NCBI GenBank assembly: GCA_030650795.1
Contig: JAUSDJ010000017.1
Location: 130,699-194,698 of the forward strand
Reading direction: 5' to 3'
DNA: 64,000 bases
From: Actinomycetota bacterium
GTDB taxonomy: Bacteria > Actinomycetota > Actinomycetes > S36-B12
Every line of letters begins with the position of its first letter. Within the stretch, counting starts at the first letter, position 1. The position numbers and the translations under genes were made by a program. The notes beneath the pieces were generated by a model. The model ran no database searches and had not been told where the DNA came from. It saw only the letters and a program-made list of their open reading frames with translations. Of the stretch, positions 1-11,802 are shown in pieces.

Positions 1-1574
1 GGTGGCGGGCAACTGGTGGCCCACTCCAATGAGCTTCCCCAGCCCCAAGGATCGTCTGTATTGACCATTGGCGCGGAGCGAGTCGTGGAGATGACATTCC
101 AGATGAAGAAGATCGAGGAGATGCCGAGTATCGCCGCACCCACGCTGGAGATCATGTTGAGCGTCTGGTAATTGTCGGTTGGAAGATAGTCGCCGTAACG
201 ACGCGGCATGCCTTCAACGCCAAGCCAATGCTGCACAAGGAAGGTCACCTGGAAGCCGATGAACAGCAGCCAGAAGTGGATCTTGCCCAGGCGCTCGTTG
301 AGCATCTTGCCGGTCATCTTGGGCCACCAGTAGTACAGCCCCGCGAAGAACATGAATACGACCGTGCCAAACACGGTGTAGTGGAAGTGCGCGACGACGA
401 AGTAGCTGTCCGACACGTGGAAGTCCAGCGGCGGGGCCGACAAGAGGACGCCTGTCAGGCCGCCGAAAAGGAAGGTGACCAGGAAGCCCATGGTCCACAG
501 CATCGGCGTGTCAAACTGAACTGAGCCCTTCCACATGGTGCCGATCCAGTTGAAGAACTTCACGCCCGTGGGCACGGCTATGAGCATGGTCATGATGGCG
601 AAGAACGGCAGGTACACCGACCCGGTCACATAGAGATGGTGGGCCCAGACGGCCATCGAGAGAGCGCCGATGGCCAGGGTCGCGAACACCAGGCCCTTGT
701 AGCCGAAGATCGGCTTACGCGAGAAGACCGGAATGATCTCGCTGGCAATGCCGAAGAATGGCAAGGCGAGGATGTAGACCTCAGGATGTCCGAAGAACCA
801 GAACAGGTGCTGCCAGAGCATCGCACCGCCGTTCTCCGAGGCGAACACCAAAGAACCGTATTGGCGGTCGATGAATGCCAGCGCCAGAGCGGCGGCGAGC
901 ACCGGGAAGCACAGGATCACGAGCACGCTGGTAACCAGCACGGTCCAGGTGAAGACCGGCATGCGGAACATCGTCATGCCGGGTGCTCGCATGCAGTAGA
1001 TGGTGGTGATGAAGTTGACCGCAGCCAGGATCGTGCCCAGGCCACCCATCGCCAAACCCAGCAGCCACATGCTCCCACCTATCTCCGGAGAGAAGACGGC
1101 GTTGCTCAGCGGTGCATAGGCGAACCAGCCGAAGGCAGCAGCACCACCGGGAGTCAGGAATCCGGCGGCGGCGATCGTGCCGCCGAACAAGAAGAGCCAG
1201 AATCCGAGCATGTTCAAGCGCGGGAAGGCAACGTCGGGTGCGCCGATTTGCAAAGGCATGATGATGTTTCCATAGGCGATGAACAGTGGGGTCGCGAACA
1301 GGAACAGCATCACGGTGCCGTGCATGGTGAAGAGCTGGTTGTATTGCTCAAGTGAGACGATCTGGAGGCCCGGCGCGGTGAGTTCTGCACGCAGCACCAG
1401 CGCCATCGCCCCAGCGCCAAAGAACCAGAAAGTTGACAGCATCAGGTACATGTACCCGATGACCTTGTGGTCGGTGGAGGTGATCCACGAGATAACGATT
1501 GAGCCGAAGGCCTTCTTGGGCTTGGCCGGCTCGAGTGCCTCCGTTTCGACAGGGCGCTCATTCAGAATCGTCAT
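1..1574 (-). CDS. ctaD: cytochrome c oxidase (aa3) subunit I, C-terminus cut by window edge
   Basis: Absent from the ORF track because no stop lies inside the window. My minus-strand translation from ATG 1574 gives [45 protein letters not shown]..., then ...[15 protein letters not shown]... and ...AHHLYVTG.... Its start overlaps the ctaC stop (ATGA). Confidence 0.93.
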
Positions 1575-2386
1575 ACAATCTTCTCCCCTGGCATCTGGCC
1601 GTGGTTGCTGAATGGTTCGGTGTTGAAAGTGCCGGTCTGACCCTTGGCCTTCAACTCGGCGATGTGCGCATCGAAGGTCGCCTTGTCGACCACCTTCACG
1701 GCGAACTGCATGCGCGAATGATCCACACCGCAGAGTTCAGCGCAATGCCCATCGAAGGTTCCGAGCCTGTTCGGCGTCAGTTCGAAGGCATTTGTCTTCC
1801 CAGGGATGACGTCCATCTTGAACAGGAAATTCGGCACCCAGAAGGAGTGAATGACGTCAGGTGAGTTGAGATTGAAGCGGACCTTCTCGTTGATCGGCAG
1901 CCAGAGCGTAGGCCGATCCGTGATGGTGCCCGCACCCTGTGGCATGCCGGTCTCCCAGACATTCTGGTCGAGGTAGTTGAAGCCCCAGCTCCAGCGGTAG
2001 GCGACCACACCGACGGTCTGCTGCTGGTCGTTCTTGAGCGTGAGAAGCTCGCTCTGATCCTTCGCGGTGAACCAGAAGATTCCGACGATCATCACCAATG
2101 GCACGATGGTGTACAGGATCTCGATCGGCAAGTTGTACTTGGTTTGCACCGGAGCGCCAGCCTGTTTCTTGCGTCGGTAGGCCACCGCTGCGAACAGCAT
2201 GAGCCCCCAGGTGAGCAGCCCAACCAGCCACGCGGCAATCCAAGAGCCCTGCCAGAGGTTCTGGATGATCGGCGCTTCCTTGGTTGCCGGTTCAGGCATG
2301 TTAAAGAAGAACACCTCGTTGGCGGTGCAGCCGGACAGGACGATTGCTATCGCAATCGTCCCAAAACCAAGAGCAATTCGCCTCAT
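1571..2386 (-). CDS. ctaC: cytochrome c oxidase subunit II (lipoprotein)
   Basis: ORF 1571..2446(-). CuA motif [17 protein letters not shown]...[14 protein letters not shown]. Start moved to ATG 2386 ([20 protein letters not shown] lipobox; AAGGAG about 10 nt upstream). GTG 2446 is the longest alternative. Confidence 0.9.
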
Positions 2387-2565
2387 CCGGCGAAGGCTCC
2401 TTGGCTGGTGCGCATTCGAACCCACAGGTTGCCTTTCGGTCCACACATCGGGCTAACAGAAACGTTCGTGAGACTAGCGCACCACCCCCTGCCAATGCTC
2501 GTCGGATCAGTGTGATCCGGCGCTCAATTTCCGAAGATTTCAGAACTCCAAGTAGCGTGCTAACC

Positions 2566-3690
2566 ATGTCCGGCCTGCCCCCTGCCCCCGCTGGGTTCCT
2601 GGACGCCGTTGGTGGCTTGCCAATGGCCAGCTCAGTTGCGGCGGCCTACGCCAGGGCGGCCGAACTTGCCTGGGCAGATCCGGTCCGTTTCCATCATCTC
2701 GGGCGCCAGTCAGCGCTCGTTCTAGATACCGCCCGCGCCAGTCTGGCGACCGGGATATCTCATGCAACGGGAGCATCGATCGGTGCTGAGCAGGTCTTCT
2801 TCGCACCGAACATGCGGATGGCTGCGCTCTGGGCTGGGCAGGGTTTTCTCGGGGCTCCCAGTTTTCTGGCGTCGGCCATCGAGACTTTGGCCTTGATCGA
2901 TGGCCTCAGCGAGCATGACCCAGGGCTGCGGACTCTGGGAGTCGACTCTCACGGATTCCTGGATCAGTCAGTGCTGGCCGATCTTGGCCCCTCGGACGGC
3001 CTTGTCCTTGCCCTGCAGGCAGCCAATGTCGAGATCGGAACAAGTCAGGATCTCAATGCCTGTTCGGCTGCCGGCTTTCGTCTGCTCGTCGATGCCAGCC
3101 AATGCCTTGGCAGAATTCCATTGGGGACGAACTGGTCACTGCTGCTTGCAGCAGCCTCAGATTGGGGCGGCCCTGTAGGCGTCGTGGTGCTGGCGGTGCA
3201 GCCAAATACTCGATGGTCCTGCCCTTTGCCCACCGTGGGCGGTTGGATCGGTAGCCGAGCCGATGTGCCCGCAGTCGTTGCGGCGGCCACCGCCCTGGAG
3301 TTGACTTTGCCAGAAGCCCAGCATCAATCAACTCAGCAGTTCGCCCTGATCGATCGTTTACGCACGTCAATTCGGGCGGCAATTTCCGATGTGACTTTTG
3401 CCGGTGACGAACATGCTCGGCTTCCACACATTCTGAATTGCTCAATCCTCTACGTCAGTGGTGAGGCTCTCGTGCTGGAACTGGACCGACGTGGCTTTGC
3501 CGTTGCCACTGGCTCAGCGTGTGTGGCCGACAGCGATCACGCCAGCCATGTACTCGCGGCGATCGGCGGATTCACCGGCGGCAATCTGCGGATCTCGCTC
3601 CCTTTCGATTGCACGGAAGAAACCGCAGACTCCTTTGTCGATGCTCTTGTCGAAGTCGTTGCCGAGTTGCGACGAGGAACTGGGTTGTGA
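2566..3690 (+). CDS. class-V aminotransferase / cysteine desulfurase-like protein lacking any lysine (probably non-canonical)
   Basis: ORF 2344..3690(+). The 5' part overlaps ctaC, so the start is set at ATG 2566 (MSGLPPAPAGF...). NifS/IscS-type C-terminal loop ATGSACVADSDHASHVLAAIG is present. There is no K anywhere in the translation. Confidence 0.75.
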   Translation: MSGLPPAPAGFLDAVGGLPMASSVAAAYARAAELAWADPVRFHHLGRQSALVLDTARASLATGISHATGASIGAEQVFFAPNMRMAALWAGQGFLGAPSFLASAIETLALIDGLSEHDPGLRTLGVDSHGFLDQSVLADLGPSDGLVLALQAANVEIGTSQDLNACSAAGFRLLVDASQCLGRIPLGTNWSLLLAAASDWGGPVGVVVLAVQPNTRWSCPLPTVGGWIGSRADVPAVVAAATALELTLPEAQHQSTQQFALIDRLRTSIRAAISDVTFAGDEHARLPHILNCSILYVSGEALVLELDRRGFAVATGSACVADSDHASHVLAAIGGFTGGNLRISLPFDCTEETADSFVDALVEVVAELRRGTGL

Positions 3691-3956
3691 ACGTCGACCT
3701 CTGGATAGACGAGCGCGGTCGACGCTGCCCGATCCCGGTGATTTCCCTCGCCCGCGCTCAGACCACTTGGTTCCGCGATGACATTGGCGTTGATGAAGTC
3801 GTTGGAATGCTCGCCGACGATCCCGCCGCTGAGTACGACATCCCGGCCTGGTGTCGGCTCAAGGGAGCAGAATTTCTCGGCAGCGTCAATCCGCCTGATG
3901 GCGGATCTGGCATGGGCTACGTCGTTCGATTCAGCGCTTCCAAACACGCTGCCTGA
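3687..3956 (+). CDS. TusA/SirA-family sulfur carrier-like protein
   Basis: In the frame of ORF 3519..3956. GTG 3687 overlaps the upstream stop (GTGA). VNVDLWIDERGRRCPIPV (CPxP) and ADDPAAEYDIPAWC are typical of TusA. Confidence 0.75.
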   Translation: MNVDLWIDERGRRCPIPVISLARAQTTWFRDDIGVDEVVGMLADDPAAEYDIPAWCRLKGAEFLGSVNPPDGGSGMGYVVRFSASKHAA

Positions 3957-4591
3957 CGGCGTGCATCGCGCAACCGAGTCAGATATTCCTCTCGCGGAAT
4001 TTCGGTAACGCCCAAGGTGGCAAGATGATCCGTGCGCCACTGAACGTCAAGCAATCGGGCACCACCACACCGCTGCAGTCTTCGTACCAGTGCAACCATC
4101 GCCACCTTCGAAGCATCGCGCTCGCGGTGAAACATCGACTCCCCAGCGAACAGACCTCCGACCTCGAGGCCATACAAGCCGCCCACAAGGGCTCCCTCGC
4201 GCCACACCTCAACCGAGTGCGCCCATCCAAGGGAGTGCAAGTGGGTGTACGCCTGAATGAAATCCTCATTGATCCACGAATCGATTCGGTCTTCATCACA
4301 GCCGCGCATGACAGCTTCAAATGCCGTATCGAAAGTGACATCGAACTGCGCAACAGACTTGCGCAGAGATTTGCTGATCTTCAAATCCTCAAGGGCCAGG
4401 ATGCCCCGCGGATTCGGCGACCACCAAGCAAGTTCGCCACTAGCCAGGTACATGGGAAAGACACCTCGGCGATACCCCTCCAGCAAGGTTGCGGGTGCAA
4501 GGTCGGCGCCAATGGCAATGACCTCTTGATCTGGTTCGGCCAGCAGTGGATCAGGGAATTTCCATGCGCAGGGCCCCGGATCGATCGGCAC
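3917..4591 (-). CDS. aat: leucyl/phenylalanyl-tRNA--protein transferase
   Basis: ORF with FPMY...WWSPNPRGIL...GGLYGLEVGGLFAGESMF. Confidence 0.88.
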   Translation of the reverse strand: MPIDPGPCAWKFPDPLLAEPDQEVIAIGADLAPATLLEGYRRGVFPMYLASGELAWWSPNPRGILALEDLKISKSLRKSVAQFDVTFDTAFEAVMRGCDEDRIDSWINEDFIQAYTHLHSLGWAHSVEVWREGALVGGLYGLEVGGLFAGESMFHRERDASKVAMVALVRRLQRCGGARLLDVQWRTDHLATLGVTEIPREEYLTRLRDARRQAACLEALNRTT

Positions 4592-4593
4592 GA

Positions 4594-5607
4594 CTAGGGC
4601 TGGGGGCAGGCCACATGTGGGGCGATATCGGCGGCTGCATCGTCACCGAAATTGCGAGCCAGGCGGTTGAGGAAGGCAGCTCGAGACAGCACGTACTCCT
4701 GAGTTCCGACCGTCTCAATGACATAAGCGGCGAGTAGCGAACCCACCTGACCCGCACGCTCATCGCTGAGACCCCATGCCATGCCGGTGAGGAAACCCGA
4801 ACGGTAGGCGTCGCCGACTCCCGTGGGATCAGTGCGACTGTCCTCTAGCGCGATGTCGACGAGAACGGGCTTCTCACCCTTGCGCTCGATGCGCGAGCCG
4901 TTCTTGCCCAGAGTAGTGATGCGCGTTTGGACCATTGACGCAATATCGCGCGTGGTCCAGCCAGTCTTCTGCTCGATCAGTGCGCCTTCGTACTCATTGG
5001 TGAACAAGTACTTCGCACCTTCGATGAGTGGCTTGATCGCGTGTCCGTCCATTCGCGCCAACTGCTGGCTGGGATCGGCGGCGAAGGCATAACCGCGCTG
5101 ACGGCACTCCTGGGTGTGACGGAGCATGGCATCGGGGTCGTTTGCACTGATGAGCACTACGTCAGGTTCACCCGCCACATCAACCACGGGCTTAAGTTCG
5201 ATGTTGCGCGCCTCAGACATCGCCCCCGCGTAGAAGGAGGCGATCTGGTTCTGTTCCTCATCGGTGGTGCAAATGAACCGGGCCGTGTGACGGGTCTCAG
5301 AGACGTGTACCCCGCTGGTATCGACTCCGTGGCGTTGCAGCCACGACTCGTAGTCAGCAAAATCTGAGCCCACAGCTCCCACGAGAACTGGCTTCAAGCC
5401 CAGGCAACCCATGCCGAATGCAATGTTTGGGGCGACCCCACCGCGACGGATCTCAAGATCATCGACAAGGAAAGAGAGCGAGACCTTGTGCAGGGTTTCA
5501 GCCACCAGCGAGTCGGTGAACTTTCCGGGGAATTTCATCAGATGGTCCGTTGCAATGGACCCAGTCACAAAGATCGGCACGGGAAGTGACCCTACTGGGG
5601 AGCCCAT
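4594..5607 (-). CDS. adoK: adenosine kinase (PfkB family)
   Basis: IFVTGSIATDHLMKFPGKF...HKVSLSFLVDDL...DPTGVGDAYRSGFLTG closely resembles mycobacterial AdoK (Rv2202c) as I recall it, in the same genomic context. The start could be GTG 5580. Confidence 0.85.
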   Translation of the reverse strand: MGSPVGSLPVPIFVTGSIATDHLMKFPGKFTDSLVAETLHKVSLSFLVDDLEIRRGGVAPNIAFGMGCLGLKPVLVGAVGSDFADYESWLQRHGVDTSGVHVSETRHTARFICTTDEEQNQIASFYAGAMSEARNIELKPVVDVAGEPDVVLISANDPDAMLRHTQECRQRGYAFAADPSQQLARMDGHAIKPLIEGAKYLFTNEYEGALIEQKTGWTTRDIASMVQTRITTLGKNGSRIERKGEKPVLVDIALEDSRTDPTGVGDAYRSGFLTGMAWGLSDERAGQVGSLLAAYVIETVGTQEYVLSRAAFLNRLARNFGDDAAADIAPHVACPQP

Positions 5608-6284
5608 TTGGAACTGAGAGTCATCGACAGCTGTTGCAGATCGACCTTTTGCGCAGCTTTCACCCGTGGGCGACCATCGATATATACATCGGTCTGGATC
5701 ACGGCATCACCTGCCTGCGAGTACACCGTGAAGGTTACCGTCTTGCCATCTTGCAGCGGATCCTTGCTCTTGAAAACAGTGCTGTCTTGAACCCAGAAAT
5801 TCTGATACTGGCCACCGGGACTGCTGCCATTGGCGTAGGTGTCGGAGACTTTGGGATCTTCATCGACCGGACCGGCCATGGTGCCGGTGCACTTGAGAAC
5901 CTCTTGAGCCAATTGCGTGTAGGCGGCGGCAGCAGCTTCAGCGCTCGGGTAGACGAATACCCGTTCGTTGACACTGGTGAAGACATTCTTCTTTTGCGGC
6001 TTCATCACGTTTTTCGCTGAATACTGCGGCGTCGAAGCAGGTATGAACGCAAGTGGGCCACCCTTGCTATCGGTGCACAGGGTCACATTCTTCACGTAGT
6101 CAATCGGCTTCTTGCTGAAGTCAAAAGAAAACGTCTGCCCAAACGAAGCCGGGACATCGGCGCTGGAAAGCACTCGGGCTTTAGGCGGAACTGCATGTGC
6201 TGGCAGTGCGAAAACGACAGATGCGACCAAGATCAGCGAAGTGCACCCTAGGGATGCACTTCGTGTTCTTAGTCGCATCTGCAA
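5592..6284 (-). CDS. secreted protein of unknown function (signal peptide ...ALPAHA; two Cys)
   Basis: ORF with an N-terminal signal peptide MQMRLRTRSASLGCTSLILVASVVFALPAHA. I recognised no catalytic motif. Confidence 0.7.
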   Translation of the reverse strand: MQMRLRTRSASLGCTSLILVASVVFALPAHAVPPKARVLSSADVPASFGQTFSFDFSKKPIDYVKNVTLCTDSKGGPLAFIPASTPQYSAKNVMKPQKKNVFTSVNERVFVYPSAEAAAAAYTQLAQEVLKCTGTMAGPVDEDPKVSDTYANGSSPGGQYQNFWVQDSTVFKSKDPLQDGKTVTFTVYSQAGDAVIQTDVYIDGRPRVKAAQKVDLQQLSMTLSSKWAPQ

Positions 6285-6315
6285 AAACTATCGATTGCGC
6301 CGAGGAATGTGAGAC

Positions 6316-6678
6316 TTAGTTGAACGAGTCTCCGCAGGCACAGGAACCCGAAGCGTTGGGGTTGTCGATCGTGAAACCCTGCTTCTCGATTGTGTCAACG
6401 AAGTCGATCGTCGCGCCATTGAGGTACGGGGCGCTCATGCGATCGGTGACGACCCCGACGCCGCCAAAGTCCTTCGTGACATCGCCATCAAGACTGCGGT
6501 CATCGAAGAAGAGCTGGTAGCGAAGGCCAGAGCAGCCACCTGGCTGAACGGCTACGCGCAGAGCAAGATCATCGCGACCCTCGGCTTCAAGGAGGGCCTT
6601 GACCTTCGAAGCTGCAGTGCTCGTGAGCACAATGCCGTCAATCGTGGGCACCGTCTGAATCTTGACGTCAGCTGTCAT
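6316..6678 (-). CDS. erpA: HesB/IscA/ErpA-family iron-sulfur cluster insertion protein
   Basis: C-terminal SGSCACGDSFN (CxCGxSF) and internal QPGGCSG. Occupies the Rv2204c-equivalent position. Confidence 0.88.
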   Translation of the reverse strand: MTADVKIQTVPTIDGIVLTSTAASKVKALLEAEGRDDLALRVAVQPGGCSGLRYQLFFDDRSLDGDVTKDFGGVGVVTDRMSAPYLNGATIDFVDTIEKQGFTIDNPNASGSCACGDSFN

Positions 6679-6782
6679 TGCGGTCCTTCCATAGGTGGTT
6701 GCCTGAAGAGTCTACGACAGGGTTAACGCCAGTTCTTCACCTCGCATTCCCGAAATGCCCCATCAATGTGGACAATAGGCAG

Positions 6783-7973
6783 ATGACCGACCTGGCGCTT
6801 GATCCCAAGCCCACTCCTCTGGCTCTGCTCCTGCTCGGACGTAATGCTGATCCCGACAGCGAAAAGGGAGTCGAATGCCCAGGTTCGCTGCCACCGGCCT
6901 CAGATCCTGATCTGGTGGCTCGCGCAGCTGCCGCCAAGGCTCGGCTGGGTGACCGGGTCTTCATTCTGGGGCACCACTACCAGCGCAATGAGGTCATTGA
7001 GTTCGCCGATGTCACGGGCGACTCCTTCAAACTGGCTCAGCAGGCAGCCGCCCATCCAGAAGCTGAGTACATCGTCTTTTGCGGCGTCCACTTCATGGCC
7101 GAGAGCGCGGACATCCTGACTTCTGATCGCCAGCAGGTCGTACTGCCCGATATGGCCGCGGGCTGCTCGATGGCCGACATGGCGGAGATCTCTCAGGTTG
7201 AGGAATGCTGGCGGGTGCTTCAGGAGGCTGGCATCGCCGAAGTCACCGTCCCCATCACTTACATGAATTCAACGGCCGCGATCAAGGCCTTTACCGGCCG
7301 AAATGGCGGCTCCGTGTGCACGTCGAGCAACGCCAAAGCCAGTCTTGAGTGGGCATTCGCGCAAGGCGAGAAGGTGCTCTTCCTTCCCGATCAGCACTTG
7401 GGGCGCAACACTGCCGTGCTCGATCTTGGACTCAGCCTCGATGACTGTGTCATCTATAACCCACGCCTTCCCAACGGTGGATTGACCATCGAGCAACTTC
7501 GCGAGGCAAAGATGATTCTTTGGCGTGGGCATTGCTCCGTGCATGCTCGCTTCACCGCGAAGTCGATTCAAGAGGTACGTGAACAAGTGCCAGGCGTGCA
7601 GGTCATCGTCCATCCTGAGTGCACCCATGAAGTCGTATCTGCTGCGGATGCGGTCGGATCAACTGAAGTCATCATTTCTACGGTTGCCAACGCCGCACCG
7701 GGCAGCGCCTGGGCCATCGGCACAGAACTAAATCTCGTCAAGAGACTGGCACAGGATCATCCCGACAAGCAGATCGTCTTCCTGGATCAAGCGGTCTGCT
7801 TTTGCGCCACGATGAATCGCATTGACCTGCCACACCTCGTTTGGGCTCTTGAATCCCTGGCCGATGGCAATCTGGTCAACCAGATCACCGTGGATCCCGA
7901 AACATCACATTGGGCTCGCGTAGCTCTGGACCGCATGCTCGCGCTGCCCGGCCCAACTACCCGGGCTGACTAG
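6783..7973 (+). CDS. nadA: quinolinate synthase
   Basis: ORF 6678..7973. Start set at ATG 6783 (MTDLALDPK...). Motifs FCGVHFMAE, WRGHCSVHARF, VHPEC. Confidence 0.9.
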   Translation: MTDLALDPKPTPLALLLLGRNADPDSEKGVECPGSLPPASDPDLVARAAAAKARLGDRVFILGHHYQRNEVIEFADVTGDSFKLAQQAAAHPEAEYIVFCGVHFMAESADILTSDRQQVVLPDMAAGCSMADMAEISQVEECWRVLQEAGIAEVTVPITYMNSTAAIKAFTGRNGGSVCTSSNAKASLEWAFAQGEKVLFLPDQHLGRNTAVLDLGLSLDDCVIYNPRLPNGGLTIEQLREAKMILWRGHCSVHARFTAKSIQEVREQVPGVQVIVHPECTHEVVSAADAVGSTEVIISTVANAAPGSAWAIGTELNLVKRLAQDHPDKQIVFLDQAVCFCATMNRIDLPHLVWALESLADGNLVNQITVDPETSHWARVALDRMLALPGPTTRAD

Positions 7974-7992
7974 CCGACTACGCTGCACCATC

Positions 7993-8577
7993 ATGTTTGG
8001 AAGGCAATCGAAGTCGAGCGACCCATCGACCACTTCAGTCGATCAATCGGCAGCTGGCAAGGGTCGCGCCACTCCCAGTCGACGCGAAGCCGAAGCCGCG
8101 CGCAAGCAGCGGGTCAAGGTGCCAGTCACGACCAACACCAAAGAGGGCAAGAAGGCTGCAAAGGAACGCGCCCGCGCAGAGCGCGAACGTTCACGCCGCG
8201 GAATGATGGCCGGCGAGGAACGCTTCATGCCTGCTCGCGATCAAGGACCAGCACGAGCATTCGCCCGAGACTTTGTCGATTCACGCTTCACGATGGCCGA
8301 GTACTTCATCTTGATCGCGGTCGGAGTGCTCGTGCTTGGCTTCATTCCGATTCAACCCATTCAATTCTGGGTGACCATCGTCTTCTTCGCTTTCGCAGCA
8401 CTGCTCGTGATCGACACAATCATCATGGTGTTCATGTTGAATCGCTTGGCGGCCGAGAGTTTTCCCGAGAACAAGGACCGCAAGGGGCTGTCCCTGTACG
8501 CGATCCTTCGCGTGATGCAGTTGCGCCGCCTGCGACTGCCCCCAGCAAGAGTCAAGCGCGGTGGGAAGCCGCGCTAG
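7993..8577 (+). CDS. DUF3043-type membrane protein
   Basis: Basic N-terminus (GKGRATPSRREAEAARKQR...), then PARDQGPARAFARDFVDSR and two TM helices. Matches the actinobacterial DUF3043 pattern as I recall it. Confidence 0.75.
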   Translation: MFGRQSKSSDPSTTSVDQSAAGKGRATPSRREAEAARKQRVKVPVTTNTKEGKKAAKERARAERERSRRGMMAGEERFMPARDQGPARAFARDFVDSRFTMAEYFILIAVGVLVLGFIPIQPIQFWVTIVFFAFAALLVIDTIIMVFMLNRLAAESFPENKDRKGLSLYAILRVMQLRRLRLPPARVKRGGKPR

Positions 8578-9975: not shown

Positions 9976-10044
9976 GCCCCGAATCGATGGATGCCATCGG
10001 TCTTGCGGGCAATCGTTCACGACCCGCTCACCGAAAGAGAAAAA

Positions 10045-11091
10045 ATGTCACGTCTGACCCGATCCATCATTGGCGTTGCCGGAATCAGCCTGGCGGCTGC
10101 CACGCTCATGAGTCCGGCACTTGCCGCATCAACCAACACTGGTCTGTTCGGTGCGGCTGATCCAACATATGACGGCGTCTACCGCCAGTCGCTGTCGATC
10201 ATCGCCCTACAGCCCCTCAACAAGGTTCCAGCCGCCGCAACGACTTGGCTCAAGTCACAGCAGTGCGCTGACGGCACCTTCGTGTCCTACCGCGCATCAC
10301 TGGACACTCCATGCGCGGCCGCAGATCCTTCCAAGTTCAGCGGCCCTGACTCCAACTCAACGGCCCTCGCTGCAACCGCGTTGCGCGCAGTTCAGGACCA
10401 CGCTCCAGCTGACAGGGCCATCAACGCACTTGTTGCCAAGCAGAATGCAGATGGCGGATGGGGCTACACCCTCGGCGCCACCTCAGATGTGAACTCCACT
10501 GGATTGGTGCTGGCTGCTCTCCACGGAGCCGCAACGCTGCCAGCCAACGCGGCAGCAATGAACAAGGCGCAGGCCTACTTGACCAAGGCTCAGGTTCCCT
10601 GCACCGGAACTGGAACCTTCGGCTTGCCATACCAACCAGGTGGCAAAGCGGACTACCTGGCTTCAGCTCAAGGGCTGATCGGCATCGCCGGCACGCTGCC
10701 TGTTGCAAAACCGGCCAAGTACGCGCCAGTCAAGGGCACGAATTGCAACTCAGAATCTGAAGCACGCGTGTCTGCCTTCTTGGCGAATTCGCTTGTCGCC
10801 AACAAAGGTCAACTCCCGTCGGCAATGGACCCAAATCAGGCTGACTACAACGCGACAGCTGACGCCGTTGTCGCTCTGGCATCTGCCGCCAGAGGGCAAG
10901 AAGGCGTTGTTGCCGGATCGGCACTGCTGAAGCAGCACGTCACCGCTTTCACCCTCTTCGGGCCGAAGTTCAAGGCAGCCGCGGCAGCGACGCTGATCCA
11001 GGTGGCCCAAGCAACCGGAACCAACCCACGAGCATTCGGAAGTGAGAAGACCAACCTGGTCGCCAATCTTCTGAACTCGATCACGAAGTAA
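10045..11091 (+). CDS. exported prenyltransferase/terpenoid-cyclase-repeat (alpha/alpha-toroid) protein
   Basis: ORF 9991..11091. Start set at ATG 10045 (MSRLTRSIIGVAGISLAAATLMSPALA signal). Repeats QQCADGTFVSY and KQNADGGWGY. First gene after the riboswitch. Confidence 0.8.
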   Translation: MSRLTRSIIGVAGISLAAATLMSPALAASTNTGLFGAADPTYDGVYRQSLSIIALQPLNKVPAAATTWLKSQQCADGTFVSYRASLDTPCAAADPSKFSGPDSNSTALAATALRAVQDHAPADRAINALVAKQNADGGWGYTLGATSDVNSTGLVLAALHGAATLPANAAAMNKAQAYLTKAQVPCTGTGTFGLPYQPGGKADYLASAQGLIGIAGTLPVAKPAKYAPVKGTNCNSESEARVSAFLANSLVANKGQLPSAMDPNQADYNATADAVVALASAARGQEGVVAGSALLKQHVTAFTLFGPKFKAAAAATLIQVAQATGTNPRAFGSEKTNLVANLLNSITK

Positions 11092-11136: not shown

Positions 11137-11802
11137 GTGAAGCACACATGTCGACGAGCCGGAGCCACACTCGTGGCCGCGCTCGTCGGCGTGCTGCTTG
11201 CAGCCACCTTCGCGAGCAGCGCGCAGGCAGCGGCCTACCGCTACTGGACATACTGGAAAGCCAGCGACAGTGCCTGGCAGTTCGCGCAAGCCGGGCCAGC
11301 GGGCACCACGCCTGCCGACGGATCTGTTGAGGGCTGGCGCTTCGCTGTCTCATCTACCAGCGGTGACCTTGCAAATGAACCGCGATTCGATGCAACTCAT
11401 GCGTTCATTGACATATGCGGGAACACTGCTGCAATCGAGGGCAAGAAGCGGGTTGCGCTCGTTGTGGATCCCGGTCTTGCTGAGGCCGCACCGTCAGGTG
11501 ATCAGCCCGGACCGCTCAAGACCTACTGCGCCGTGGTGGCAAGCGACGCCAATGGTTATGACGTACTTCGAAGCGTTGGACCAGTACGTGTCGGCAGCGG
11601 ATTGATCTGCGCAATCGACAGCTATCCGACAAGCGGCTGCGCGGATGTGGTGGACCAGACTCAGCTAGGCGATGTCATGAGTACCGCTCCGAGCGTCCAG
11701 GCTGCAACAGCTGACCAATTCAGCGCTGTGCCAGTCATCATTGGTGTGGGCGCGCTGGGTGCACTGGCTGCTCTGGCATGGTGGTTGAGGAGAAGAAGAT
11801 GA
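11137..11802 (+). CDS. exported, C-terminally membrane-anchored protein (SCO2322-like as I recall it; DUF4430-like N-terminal motif)
   Basis: Signal peptide ...ASSAQA. YRYWTYWKASDSAWQFAQAGP...DGSVEGWRFAV. C-terminal TM helix VPVIIGVGALGALAALAWW followed by LRRRR. Confidence 0.75.
   Translation: MKHTCRRAGATLVAALVGVLLAATFASSAQAAAYRYWTYWKASDSAWQFAQAGPAGTTPADGSVEGWRFAVSSTSGDLANEPRFDATHAFIDICGNTAAIEGKKRVALVVDPGLAEAAPSGDQPGPLKTYCAVVASDANGYDVLRSVGPVRVGSGLICAIDSYPTSGCADVVDQTQLGDVMSTAPSVQAATADQFSAVPVIIGVGALGALAALAWWLRRRR

What the first reader, a model, noticed from the sequence alone, without database searches (positions are those of the whole stretch)
2566..3956. Lysine-free NifS/IscS-like protein coupled to a TusA-like CPxP protein, divergent from ctaC-ctaD
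The 374-aa product has the class-V aminotransferase/cysteine desulfurase layout and keeps the persulfide-loop cysteine (ATGSACVADSDHASHVLAAIG). However, I count no lysine in it, and none in the 448-aa maximal ORF either. IscS/NifS/SufS carry the PLP Schiff-base lysine in the motif S-x-H-K-x-x-G-P-x-G. By eye, the matching segment here reads AAASDWGGPVG. Without that lysine a canonical internal aldimine is impossible, so this is probably not an ordinary PLP desulfurase. Its stop overlaps (GTGA) the start of an 89-aa TusA/SirA-type protein with an intact CPxP cysteine (RGRRCPIPV). Possible roles are a persulfide relay or acceptor, a pseudoenzyme partner of a true desulfurase, or a thiol/metal-handling role linked to oxidase biogenesis. 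All of these are speculative.
Basis: partly seen in the sequence, partly recalled or inferred. Interest (0 to 1): 0.6.

Follow-up and report, generated by a model that had tools for sequence, protein, structure and literature searches.

The report
Lysine-less cysteine desulfurase relative with TusA partner
This gene encodes a well-conserved relative of the sulfur-mobilising enzyme IscS/NifS that has lost the lysine and most other residues that hold its vitamin-B6 cofactor but keeps its sulfur-carrying cysteine. It therefore probably works as a non-catalytic sulfur-handling partner, and many freshwater and soil actinobacteria carry the same variant, annotated in databases as an ordinary "cysteine desulfurase".

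Summary
ORF 2566-3690 (+) encodes a 374-aa class-I (IscS/NifS) cysteine-desulfurase homologue with no lysine. The PLP Schiff-base lysine column holds Asp199.

T76, H104, N155, S203 and H205 (E. coli IscS numbering) are also replaced. The loop Cys (C319), the substrate Arg (R342) and D176 (=D180) are kept. The AF2 model is confident (pLDDT 94.5) and matches IscS/NFS1 structures at TM 0.85.

The stop overlaps (GTGA) the start of an 89-aa TusA-family protein with its CPxP cysteine.

This is not strain-specific decay:
- dN/dS is about 0.1.
- At least 82 sequence clusters lack the lysine.
- About 125 of the 148 nearest 50%-identity representatives lack it, while C328 and R354 stay about 97% invariant.

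All loci examined sit in the same place: divergent from ctaC-ctaD, near erpA and nadA. Syntenic orthologues in Kitasatospora, Nocardioides, Actinomadura and others keep H104 and SAHKWGGP. In Kitasatospora the enzyme is fused to the TusA domain. The lysine was lost at least three times.

The closest precedent is archaeal A. fulgidus IscS (Lys to Asp, inactive, IscU partner), which belongs to a separate lineage.

Best reading: a PLP-free pseudo-desulfurase that acts through its loop cysteine. The exact role is unknown.

The parts
2566..3690 (+). Lysine-less IscS/NifS-like gene (374 aa). Key codons: Asp199 (in place of the PLP lysine) at 3160-3162; loop Cys319 at 3520-3522; Arg342 (=R354) at 3589-3591; clade-specific Cys349 at 3610-3612.
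   Evidence: Pfam PF00266 41.9 bits. NCBIfam NifS 122.6 bits against a cut-off of 530. Best PDB sequence matches are cysteine desulfurases. 0 Lys. Column analysis. AF2 pLDDT 94.5. Foldseek TM 0.85 to IscS/NFS1/AfIscS. dN/dS about 0.1.
3687..3956 (+). TusA-family sulfur-carrier-like gene (89 aa). GTG start overlaps the upstream stop (GTGA). CPxP cysteine Cys14 at 3726-3728. Second TusA motif DDPAAEYDIPAWC.
   Evidence: Pfam TusA 39.4 bits against a cut-off of 28.6. Aligns to E. coli TusA 1dcj/3lvj_C across the Cys motif. Adjacent in 74 of 80 genome loci, always with CPxP. Fused to the desulfurase in Kitasatospora. dN/dS 0.18-0.20.
2366..2565 (.). Divergent ctaC / NifS-like intergenic region, unusually conserved. 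It holds the perfect palindrome CGGATCA-GTG-TGATCCG at 2503-2519. A TANNNT-type hexamer TAGCGT sits at 2553-2558, 7 nt before the ATG at 2566, which suggests a leaderless mRNA.
   Evidence: About 90% identity among four relatives whose flanking genes have dS about 1-2. The palindrome and the CCAAGTA[GC]CGTG-N7-ATG arrangement are also present in L001 (and the latter in L002), at 56-58% protein identity. No Rfam match; fold z-score -0.55.
1571..2365 (-). ctaC (cytochrome c oxidase subunit II), divergent neighbour. The likely start is the ATG at 2365 (264 aa, AAGGAG 9 nt upstream) rather than the GTG at 2446.
   Evidence: Pfam COX2. Homologues are called at 264-271 aa. Divergent ctaC found in 80 of 80 related loci.
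3..1574 (-). ctaD (cytochrome c oxidase subunit I), truncated by the window edge.
   Evidence: Pfam COX1 528 bits.
3917..4591 (-). aat (leucyl/phenylalanyl-tRNA-protein transferase), convergent. Its 3' end overlaps the TusA-like gene by 40 nt.
   Evidence: Pfam and NCBIfam equivalog above cut-off. Same overlap in L081 and L083.
4594..5607 (-). PfkB-family kinase, a conserved member of the block.
   Evidence: PfkB-family kinase models of NCBIfam, all far below their cut-offs; Pfam PF00294 (PfkB) on the orthologous genes of related loci. Present in most related loci.
6316..6678 (-). ErpA/IscA-type Fe-S cluster carrier gene, a conserved member of the block.
   Evidence: NCBIfam TIGR00049 117 bits against a cut-off of 58.8. 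Present in most related loci. Immediately follows the Lys-less gene in Demequina.
6783..7973 (+). nadA (quinolinate synthase, a [4Fe-4S] enzyme), a conserved member of the block.
   Evidence: Pfam NadA in related loci. tblastn hits in most of the 80 loci.

Best explanation
The gene encodes a pseudo-desulfurase. It descends from an actinobacterial class-I (IscS/NifS-type) cysteine desulfurase and still adopts that fold. It can no longer form the PLP internal aldimine, because Lys is replaced by Asp199. It has also lost most of the cofactor pocket (T76, H104, N155, S203, H205). It therefore almost certainly neither binds PLP nor cleaves cysteine.

What selection has kept is the flexible-loop cysteine (C319 = IscS C328), the active-site arginine (R342 = R354) and Asp176 (= D180). 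In this lineage a translationally coupled TusA-type carrier with its reactive cysteine is kept as well.

The most likely mechanism is as follows. The protein works as a cofactor-less sulfur-handling adaptor. Its loop cysteine receives or holds sulfane sulfur (or ligates a nascent Fe-S cluster) that a genuine desulfurase elsewhere in the genome has mobilised. It then exchanges that sulfur with the TusA-like protein, as E. coli IscS does with TusA.

Shown here: homology and fold, loss of the lysine and pocket, purifying selection, conserved synteny, and the genetic link to TusA (adjacency, coupling, natural fusion).

Inferred: absence of PLP, absence of desulfurase activity, direction and source of sulfur flow, and the final acceptor.
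For: Fold and homology:
- PF00266 is above its cut-off.
- NifS/IscS models score far below their equivalog cut-offs: 122 against 530, 76 against 548.
- AF2 pLDDT is 94.5, with only the Cys loop 318-324 disordered, as in IscS.
- Foldseek TM is 0.85 to NFS1, Mtb IscS, AfIscS and the EcIscS-TusA complex.

Loss of the cofactor site:
- K206 is Asp199.
- T76, E77, H104, N155, S203, H205 and T243 are replaced here and across the clade.
- E156, S326, C328 and R354 are 100% conserved and D180 is 92% conserved in the 82-member Lys-less clade.
- The window protein has no lysine at all, so none can compensate.

Not a pseudogene:
- dN/dS is 0.09-0.13, against 0.005-0.11 for the neighbours.
- About 125 of the 148 nearest 50%-identity representatives lack the Lys, yet keep C328 (145/148) and R354 (142/148).

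Orthology:
- All loci examined share ctaC (divergent), pfkB, erpA and nadA.
- 64 of 80 genome loci keep H104 and SAHKWGGP.

TusA link:
- Adjacent in 74 of 80 loci, with CPxP invariant.
- 4-nt overlap in the window, L081, L083, L001 and L002.
- In-frame desulfurase-TusA fusion in Kitasatospora.

Precedent: A. fulgidus IscS (Lys to Asp) has no desulfurase activity but donates its loop Cys to a [2Fe-2S] cluster on IscU (PMC7585200; PDB 4eb5/4hvk/4r5f).
Against: - No biochemical data exist for any member.
- The TusA-like gene is missing from 6 of 24 Lys-less loci, against 1 of 64 Lys-bearing loci (Fisher P = 0.0014, not corrected for phylogeny). The retained function therefore cannot depend strictly on TusA.
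- D180 and R354 are both retained, which could mean that a small ligand, or even a cofactor, is still bound.
- The sulfur donor is unknown. No other desulfurase lies in the 64-kb window, and the rest of the genome could not be searched.
- dN is higher than in the neighbours (0.19-0.22), which indicates relaxed constraint.
- The counts of independent losses rest on neighbour-joining trees of divergent sequences.
Confidence: 0.5

Rival explanations
1. AfIscS-like structural role in Fe-S cluster assembly. The dead desulfurase acts as a docking platform, and its loop cysteine is a ligand for a cluster built on a partner. Candidate partners are the nearby ErpA-type carrier, NadA, or the TusA-like protein. 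It does not carry persulfide sulfur.
For: - The A. fulgidus IscS precedent (PDB 4eb5).
- erpA and nadA are conserved in the same block. erpA directly follows the Lys-less gene in Demequina and lies two genes away in L086.
- B. subtilis NifS builds the NadA cluster directly (PMC13066941).
- A Cys specific to the Lys-less clade (C349, 70 of 82) appears where Lys-bearing orthologues have T/A/V.
Against: - No IscU/NifU-type scaffold appears among the called genes of any of the ten loci with precomputed gene calls (L081-L090).
- AfIscS keeps the rest of its PLP pocket and loses R354. This clade does the opposite.
- Synteny with erpA and nadA may simply be an ancestral actinobacterial gene order.
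Confidence: 0.2
2. Regulatory or sensor pseudoenzyme. The vestigial pocket (D180, R354, loop Cys) binds cysteine, a low-molecular-weight persulfide or another carboxylate. The protein then modulates a true desulfurase (possibly by heterodimerising with it) or titrates TusA.
For: - D180 (92-98%) and R354 (about 97%) are retained across very divergent Lys-less sequences, although the rest of the pocket varies freely.
- Class-I desulfurases are obligate dimers (established knowledge).
- TusA is known to modulate IscS activity in E. coli (references).
Against: There is no direct evidence. D180 may be kept only as a salt-bridge partner for the Arg that appears at pocket positions 76, 104 or 205. 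Such an Arg is present in 71-81% of Lys-less proteins against about 12% of Lys-bearing ones.
Confidence: 0.13
3. Role tied to cytochrome aa3 oxidase (ctaC/ctaD) biogenesis or regulation, for example thiol or metal handling for the oxidase.
For: Divergent adjacency to ctaC in all 80 genome-scan loci and in the five later loci (L081-L085, L087, L088, L090) that extend upstream; L086 and L089 stop too short to show it. The shared intergenic region is highly conserved and carries a palindrome.
Against: - The protein is cytoplasmic-type, with no signal peptide or transmembrane segment evident in the sequence, whereas the CuA domain of CtaC lies outside the membrane.
- No known oxidase assembly factor is IscS-like (established knowledge).
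- By recollection only, mycobacteria and corynebacteria keep ctaC without this gene. This was not tested here.
Confidence: 0.1
4. Still a catalytic enzyme that uses a non-covalently bound PLP or another cofactor or nucleophile.
For: D180, Q183 (65%) and R354 are kept. Some Lys-less lineages still keep H104 and T76: Jatrophihabitans-type, Propionibacteriaceae-type, and 27 of the representatives.
Against: The window protein lacks the Lys and also T76, H104, N155, S203, H205 and T243, and it has no lysine anywhere. The replacement residue is highly variable (S, D, A, T, G, L, M), which is not expected of a catalytic position.
Confidence: 0.05
5. A decaying gene with no function.
For: It has the highest dN among the genes compared (0.19-0.22).
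Against: - The ORF is intact in every relative.
- dN/dS is about 0.1.
- Motifs stay invariant over sequences down to about 30% identity.
- The start and promoter-like elements are conserved.
Confidence: 0.02

Closest known systems
Archaeoglobus fulgidus IscS (AF0564; PDB 4EB5, 4HVK; D199K mutant 4R5F) and Methanosarcina acetivorans IscS1
   Same: Class-I IscS fold with the PLP lysine replaced (also by Asp, coincidentally also residue 199). No desulfurase activity is reported for AfIscS. The loop cysteine is kept and used as a [2Fe-2S] ligand.
   Different: This is a separate lineage. AfIscS-like proteins (motif SSN-D/Q/S-x-YGP) keep GATE and H104 and lose R354. The actinobacterial clade loses T76, H104 and N155 and keeps R354. 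AfIscS pairs with IscU. This protein pairs with a TusA-type protein and sits beside ctaC. The actinobacterial clade nests inside a Lys-bearing actinobacterial orthogroup.
E. coli IscS-TusA sulfur relay (PDB 3LVJ)
   Same: A class-I desulfurase fold plus a TusA-family partner with a CPxP cysteine. Structural match at TM 0.85. The TusA-like protein aligns to E. coli TusA across both motifs.
   Different: E. coli IscS is a PLP enzyme that generates the persulfide itself. Here the lysine and the pocket are gone. The TusA-like protein scores 29 bits against the TusA equivalog cut-off of 78. No TusBCDE or MnmA genes lie nearby.
Lys-bearing syntenic orthologues in Kitasatospora, Nocardioides, Actinomadura, Nonomuraea, Actinoplanes, Jiangella and Kribbella (uncharacterised)
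   Same: Same genomic position (ctaC divergent; TusA, pfkB, erpA, nadA). 36-41% identity. Same W after the Lys column, same Cys loop and Arg.
   Different: They keep T76, H104, S203, H205 (or Arg at 205) and K206, so they look like working desulfurases. In Kitasatospora the enzyme is fused to TusA.
Bacillus subtilis dedicated desulfurase-acceptor pairs (NifS-NadA, YrvO-MnmA, NifZ-ThiI)
   Same: The concept of a class-I desulfurase paralogue dedicated to one acceptor and encoded beside it. nadA lies in the same block here.
   Different: All the B. subtilis enzymes are described as active cysteine desulfurases (cysteine sulfurtransferases) (PMC8300815; PMC13066941) and so should keep the lysine; their sequences were not examined here. 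No evidence links this protein to NadA other than proximity.

Membership tests
Class-V aminotransferase fold / class-I (IscS/NifS) cysteine desulfurase superfamily (homology) | Significant profile match and the fold | tested here: met
   PF00266 41.9 bits against a cut-off of 21.5. AF2 pLDDT 94.5. Foldseek TM 0.85, E 1e-30, to IscS/NFS1.
Functional PLP-dependent cysteine desulfurase (IscS/NifS) | Schiff-base lysine (E. coli IscS K206) in S-x-H-K-x-x-G-P | tested here: not met
   Asp199 is in that column, and the protein has no lysine at all.
Functional PLP-dependent cysteine desulfurase (IscS/NifS) | PLP-pocket residues T76 (phosphate), H104 (ring stacking), N155, S203, H205, T243 | tested here: not met
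   The query has R84, T107, V155, A196, S198 and R231. These positions are variable across the clade.
Functional PLP-dependent cysteine desulfurase (IscS/NifS) | Asp contacting the pyridine N1 (D180) | tested here: met
   D176 in the query. 92-98% conserved in Lys-less sequences.
Functional PLP-dependent cysteine desulfurase (IscS/NifS) | Mobile-loop persulfide cysteine (C328, GSAC) and substrate-carboxylate arginine (R354) | tested here: met
   C319 and R342. Invariant in 82 of 82 clade members, and 145/148 and 142/148 of the representatives.
Functional PLP-dependent cysteine desulfurase (IscS/NifS) | Score above the curated equivalog cut-offs (NifS TIGR03402, IscS TIGR02006/NF010611) | tested here: not met
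   122.6 against 530.75; 74.5 against 643.2; 76.3 against 548.
Functional PLP-dependent cysteine desulfurase (IscS/NifS) | PLP binding and cysteine desulfuration activity | not testable with these tools
   Needs purified protein.
AfIscS-type Lys-less IscS (archaeal IscS2 paired with IscU) | Lys replaced (Asp in AfIscS) with the remaining pocket (GATE, H104) intact, and R354 replaced | tested here: not met
   The Lys to Asp change is shared. However, the pocket is degenerate here and R354 is kept. AfIscS has SSNDIYGP, ATEAN, VEH and LLLTLGR.
AfIscS-type Lys-less IscS (archaeal IscS2 paired with IscU) | Adjacent IscU scaffold gene; phylogenetic membership | tested here: not met
   No NifU/IscU gene is called in the ten loci with gene calls. 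The clade nests within the actinobacterial ctaC-adjacent orthogroup.
TusA family (PF01206) for ORF 3687-3956 | Profile match above the gathering score and the reactive Cys in CPxP | tested here: met
   39.4 bits against 28.6. RGRRCPIPV aligns to E. coli TusA LGLRCPEPV. CPxP is present in all 74 neighbours.
TusA equivalog (E. coli TusA of the Tus/MnmA tRNA-thiolation relay) | Score above NF001423 cut-off; TusBCDE/MnmA context | tested here: not met
   29.1 bits against 78. No such genes appear in the neighbourhood gene calls.

The most novel reading that the evidence does not exclude
The ctaC-adjacent IscS-like orthogroup of aerobic Actinomycetota may have a core function that never needed PLP chemistry. 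That would explain why the lysine and the pocket were discarded again and again while C328, R354 and D180 stay fixed.

The Lys-less proteins would then be a new class of cofactor-less sulfur or Fe-S factor. One version is a protein that binds cysteine persulfide or another low-molecular-weight persulfide through D180 and R354 and takes the sulfane sulfur onto the loop cysteine. Another is a protein that ligates a cluster with C319 and the clade-specific C349. Either would feed ErpA, NadA or the respiratory chain, with TusA as an optional partner.
Probability: 0.15. Interest if true: 0.8.

Novelty: new variant of a known kind. Interest (0 to 1): 0.55.

Why it matters
Cysteine desulfurases are the entry point of sulfur into Fe-S clusters, thio-cofactors and tRNA. 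Only a few catalytically dead relatives are known: archaeal AfIscS, and M. acetivorans IscS1, which also lacks the lysine.

This work shows a second, independent and much larger group of dead relatives in bacteria:
- It is spread through freshwater Nanopelagicales-type lineages, Propionibacteriaceae, Jatrophihabitans and Micrococcales (including the cultured Demequina sediminis).
- It always sits at the same conserved position beside the cytochrome oxidase genes.
- It arose by repeated loss of the lysine from an enzyme that other actinomycetes keep, sometimes fused to TusA.

If true, this has three consequences:
- It flags systematic mis-annotation. These proteins are labelled "PLP-dependent enzyme" or "cysteine desulfurase IscS", which inflates the inferred sulfur-mobilising capacity of abundant uncultured actinobacteria.
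- It offers a natural series (Lys-bearing, Lys-less with pocket, Lys-less without pocket, with or without TusA) for asking what an IscS scaffold does besides catalysis.
- It gives a tractable route to the unknown function of the conserved desulfurase-TusA module of actinomycetes.

Tried and rejected
- Pseudogene or strain-specific decay was rejected on dN/dS and clade-wide conservation.
- Membership of the AfIscS group was rejected. The remote Lys-less hits (P0085, P0087 and similar, motif SN-x-FYGP) are the AfIscS-like group. They differ from this clade at T76, H104 and R354.
- A compensating lysine elsewhere was rejected, because the protein has none.
- A known RNA element in the conserved ctaC / NifS-like intergenic region was sought. 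There was no Rfam match, and the fold is no better than shuffles.
- The sigma-70 consensus scan found no promoter. An actinobacterial TANNNT hexamer 7 nt before the ATG fits a leaderless start instead.
- A search for another desulfurase in the window found none.
- Literature searches found nothing on this family. The terms tried were SCO2157, cysteine desulfurase + TusA + Actinobacteria/ctaC, inactive desulfurase homologues, and TusA + Streptomyces + fusion.
- Counting independent losses gave at least 3 on the first neighbour-joining tree and 9 on the wider sample. I trust only "at least three", because fast-evolving Lys-less sequences distort neighbour-joining trees.
- A residue-level look at the model's pocket, and the distance between C349 and C319, could not be done. 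Model coordinates are not exposed.
Full report
**1. What is in the sequence**

- ORF 2566-3690 (+) encodes 374 aa with no lysine. The maximal 448-aa ORF from 2344 has none either.
- The TGA stop (3688-3690) overlaps the GTG start (3687) of an 89-aa ORF, 3687-3956.
- Upstream and divergent lie ctaC (1571-2365/2446, Pfam COX2) and ctaD (3-1574, COX1 528 bits, cut by the window edge).
- Downstream lie a convergent aat (3917-4591), a PfkB kinase (4594-5607), a PknH_C-like ORF, an ErpA-type Fe-S carrier (6316-6678) and nadA.

**2. Family and fold**

- The 374-aa protein matches Pfam Aminotran_5 (41.9 bits, cut-off 21.5).
- It reaches only 122.6 bits on NCBIfam NifS (cut-off 530) and 74-76 bits on the IscS equivalogs (cut-offs 548-643).
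- Its best matches among solved structures are class-I cysteine desulfurases, including A. fulgidus IscS 4eb5.
- An AlphaFold2 model built on a 53-sequence family alignment has mean pLDDT 94.5 and pTM 0.92. Only residues 318-324, the persulfide loop, fall below 50, as expected for the mobile loop of class-I enzymes.
- Foldseek places the model with human NFS1, M. tuberculosis IscS, AfIscS and the E. coli IscS-TusA complex at TM about 0.85.

**3. The active site**

I use E. coli IscS numbering.

| IscS position | Window protein |
|---|---|
| K206 | D199 |
| H205 | S198 |
| S203 | A196 |
| H104 | T107 |
| T76 | R84 |
| N155 | V155 |
| T243 | R231 |

Retained residues are D180 (D176), Q183 (Q179), E156, S326, C328 (C319) and R354 (R342). 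With no lysine anywhere in the chain, no other residue can take over the Schiff base.

**4. Not a local accident**

- The indexed protein search returned 84 family members down to 34% identity, all but three of which (P0075, P0077, P0080) lack the lysine. The consensus is A-R-D-W-G/A-G-P.
- dN/dS against two relatives at 70-75% identity is 0.09-0.13 for this gene and 0.18-0.20 for the TusA-like gene. Neighbours give 0.005-0.11. dS is saturated, so these are rough values, but they are clearly far below 1.
- The exhaustive search of 50%-identity representatives gave 121 clusters at E below 1e-30.
- Among the best 148 representatives, only 20 carry the lysine. The others carry S, D, A, T, G, L, M and so on. 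C328 is present in 145 and R354 in 142.
- D180 is retained in 92-98% of Lys-less sequences.
- An Arg or Lys appears at pocket positions 76, 104 or 205 in 71-81% of Lys-less proteins, against about 12% of Lys-bearing ones. This suggests the empty pocket is filled and salt-bridged (inference).
- Residues specific to the Lys-less clade include W227 and a new cysteine, C349 (70 of 82). Lys-bearing orthologues have R and T/A/V at those positions.

**5. Orthology and history**

- A scan of one genome per species returned at least 565 relatives. The 80 best loci are nearly all labelled Actinomycetota; the two exceptions (L003, L010) look mislabelled (section 11).
- All 80 have a divergent ctaC. 74 have the TusA-like gene directly downstream, always with CPxP. 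Most have pfkB, erpA and nadA nearby.
- 64 of the 80 keep T76, H104, S203, H205 (Arg in eight of them) and K206 (SAHKWGGP). These are Kitasatospora, Nocardioides, Actinomadura, Nonomuraea, Actinoplanes, Catellatospora, Jiangella, Kribbella, Microbispora and others.
- The Lys-less loci fall into several groups:
  - Nanopelagicales-type (R-D/G-W; H104 also lost).
  - Propionibacteriaceae MAGs (WAGAFGGP; H104 kept).
  - Jatrophihabitans-type (DAR-S/T-WGG; H104 and T76 kept).
  - L067.
- Parsimony on a neighbour-joining tree gives at least three losses. A wider sample gives nine, which I treat as an upper-side estimate.
- More distant Lys-less representatives sit in the same block:
  - Demequina sediminis (Micrococcales, cultured, annotated "cysteine desulfurase IscS"): ctaF-ctaD-ctaC | gene | erpA, glxK | nadA, DUF3043, aldo-keto reductase.
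  - Five metagenomic contigs show the same arrangement.
- The Lys-bearing enzyme is therefore ancestral, and the window gene is its positional orthologue.

**6. The TusA link**

- The 89-aa product matches Pfam TusA (39.4 against 28.6). It aligns to E. coli TusA over both the G-x-R-C-P-x-P and DDP...DIP-x-x-C motifs.
- It does not reach the E. coli TusA equivalog cut-off (29 against 78).
- In ten Kitasatospora loci, as judged from ORF length and in-frame TusA hits, the desulfurase and the TusA domain form one ORF; I confirmed this by translation in two of them, L025 and L055. That is classical gene-fusion evidence for a functional pair.
- The TusA-like gene is absent from 6 of 24 Lys-less loci but from only 1 of 64 Lys-bearing loci (Fisher P = 0.0014, not phylogenetically corrected).
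- Once catalysis is lost, TusA seems to become dispensable in some lineages while the IscS-like protein is still kept.

**7. Mechanism**

What is shown:
- An IscS fold without the lysine or the cofactor pocket.
- Strict retention of the loop Cys, R354 and D180.
- Purifying selection.
- A genetic link to TusA.

What I infer:
- The protein binds no PLP and cannot desulfurate cysteine.
- It works through its loop cysteine as a sulfur relay or adaptor with the TusA-like carrier.
- The sulfur is mobilised by another enzyme. By established knowledge, Actinomycetota generally carry SufS. This could not be checked for this genome, and none lies in the window.

I put about 0.9 on "not a PLP desulfurase" and about 0.35-0.4 on the relay role specifically. 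The overall confidence of 0.5 reflects both.

Rivals:
- An AfIscS-like role as cluster ligand or platform. erpA and nadA proximity, the new C349 and the B. subtilis NifS-NadA precedent speak for it.
- A ligand-sensing or regulatory pseudoenzyme.
- An oxidase-linked role.
- Residual non-canonical catalysis.
- Decay.

**8. Comparison with what is known**

- The concept is known. A. fulgidus IscS has Asp in place of the lysine and no desulfurase activity, and it gives its loop Cys to a [2Fe-2S] cluster on IscU. M. acetivorans IscS1 also lacks the lysine (PMC7585200).
- A second Lys-less group among my remote hits (SN-x-F/L-YGP) is that AfIscS-type group. P0095 matches 4eb5 at E 1e-101. It keeps GATE and H104 and loses R354.
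- The actinobacterial clade has a different origin, shows the opposite retention pattern, and has a different partner.
- I found no paper describing it, nor its Lys-bearing ctaC-adjacent orthologues.

Hence my classification: a new variant of a known kind.

**9. Qualification on "lysine-free"**

Against neighbouring proteins (3.2% Lys), zero Lys in 374 aa is very unlikely (P about 6e-6). However, Lys-bearing orthologues have only 1-6 Lys in total. The complete absence therefore adds little beyond the loss of the catalytic residue.

**10. Start site and regulation (side finding)**

- The 200-bp region between ctaC and this gene is about 90% identical among four relatives whose coding regions are saturated at synonymous sites.
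- It contains a perfect palindrome, CGGATCA-GTG-TGATCCG (2503-2519). The palindrome is also found as GCCGGATC-N5-GATCCGGC in L001, at 58% protein identity.
- It also contains a TA[GC]CGT hexamer exactly 7 nt before the start codon in the window, L081, L083, L001 and L002. This fits a leaderless mRNA starting at the ATG at 2566 and supports that start.
- On the other strand, AAGGAG lies 9 nt before the ATG at 2365. That favours a 264-aa CtaC over the 291-aa GTG ORF.
- No Rfam family matches, and folding is unremarkable.

**11. Verdict**

A widespread set of actinobacterial proteins annotated as "cysteine desulfurase" are recurrently evolved, conserved, cofactor-less relatives of a desulfurase-TusA module. 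Their function remains unknown.

Interest is moderate to high for specialists in sulfur trafficking and Fe-S biogenesis. It is tempered by the archaeal precedent and by the lack of any functional data.

Noticed in passing
window 2366-2565: The ctaC / NifS-like intergenic region is about 90% identical among relatives whose genes have dS about 1-2. It holds a perfect palindrome, CGGATCA-GTG-TGATCCG, at 2503-2519, also present in L001. It also holds a conserved TA[GC]CGT hexamer 7 nt before the ATG, which suggests a leaderless mRNA and an unknown DNA-binding regulator.
   Followed up: partly
window 2365-2446 (-): ctaC probably starts at the ATG at 2365 (264 aa, AAGGAG 9 nt upstream, matching the 264-271 aa gene calls in relatives). 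The GTG at 2446 of the 291-aa ORF is less likely. The conserved block 2400-2483 would then be the ctaC 5' UTR.
   Followed up: partly
window 3917-3956: The TusA-like gene (+) and aat (-) converge and overlap by 40 nt at their 3' ends. The same overlap is seen in L081 and L083.
   Followed up: no
L018, L025, L031, L032, L033, L047, L055, L056, L071, L078 (about 6001-7400): In Kitasatospora the Lys-bearing orthologue and the TusA domain form a single 453-493-aa ORF, a natural desulfurase-TusA fusion. I found no description of it in the searched literature.
   Followed up: yes
P0085, P0087-P0089, P0091, P0095, P0097, P0099, P0101, P0103, P0111, P0112, P0115, P0117: A second, unrelated Lys-less NifS-like group appears among the remote hits (motif SN-x-F/L-YGP, R354 replaced by V/L/C, lysine-rich proteins). 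P0095 matches A. fulgidus IscS 4eb5 at E 1e-101, so this is the AfIscS-type group. It appears to be common in metagenomes.
   Followed up: partly
window 3610-3612 (Cys349) and 3244-3246 (Trp227): Some residues are conserved only in the Lys-less clade: C349 (70 of 82; T/A/V in Lys-bearing orthologues), W227 (R in Lys-bearing), E245 and G338. Conversely, a Cys conserved in Lys-bearing orthologues (TFSCLYV) is lost. Spatial relations could not be checked.
   Followed up: partly
L085 (Demequina sediminis, 7001-8134); P0001, P0005, P0021, P0145: Public annotations call Lys-less members "cysteine desulfurase IscS", "cysteine desulfurase family protein" or "aminotransferase class V-fold PLP-dependent enzyme". 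These names are probably wrong with respect to catalysis and the cofactor.
   Followed up: partly
L003 (CAMAWO010000027.1) and L010 (JANWJC010000165.1): These contigs are labelled "Bifidobacterium breve" MAG and "Acidobacteria bacterium" MAG. Both carry the full Nanopelagicales-type block (ctaC, NifS-like, TusA, aat, pfkB, and in L003 also erpA and nadA) at 55-91% identity to the window. The taxonomic labels look like binning or labelling errors.
   Followed up: no
window 5592-6284 (-): A 230-aa ORF with a weak PknH_C-like extracellular domain sits between pfkB and erpA. This slot is variable among relatives (one or two such genes, or glycerate kinase).
   Followed up: no
window 9991-30975: The rest of the window carries ECF/CbiQ-type transporter genes, cobU and cobT, gcvT, pepA, lpdA, an E2 acyltransferase, lipB, lipA and glnA. 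By recollection this order resembles the M. tuberculosis Rv2200c-Rv2220 region. Two ORFs (9991-11091 and 11137-11802) have no Pfam match.
   Followed up: partly
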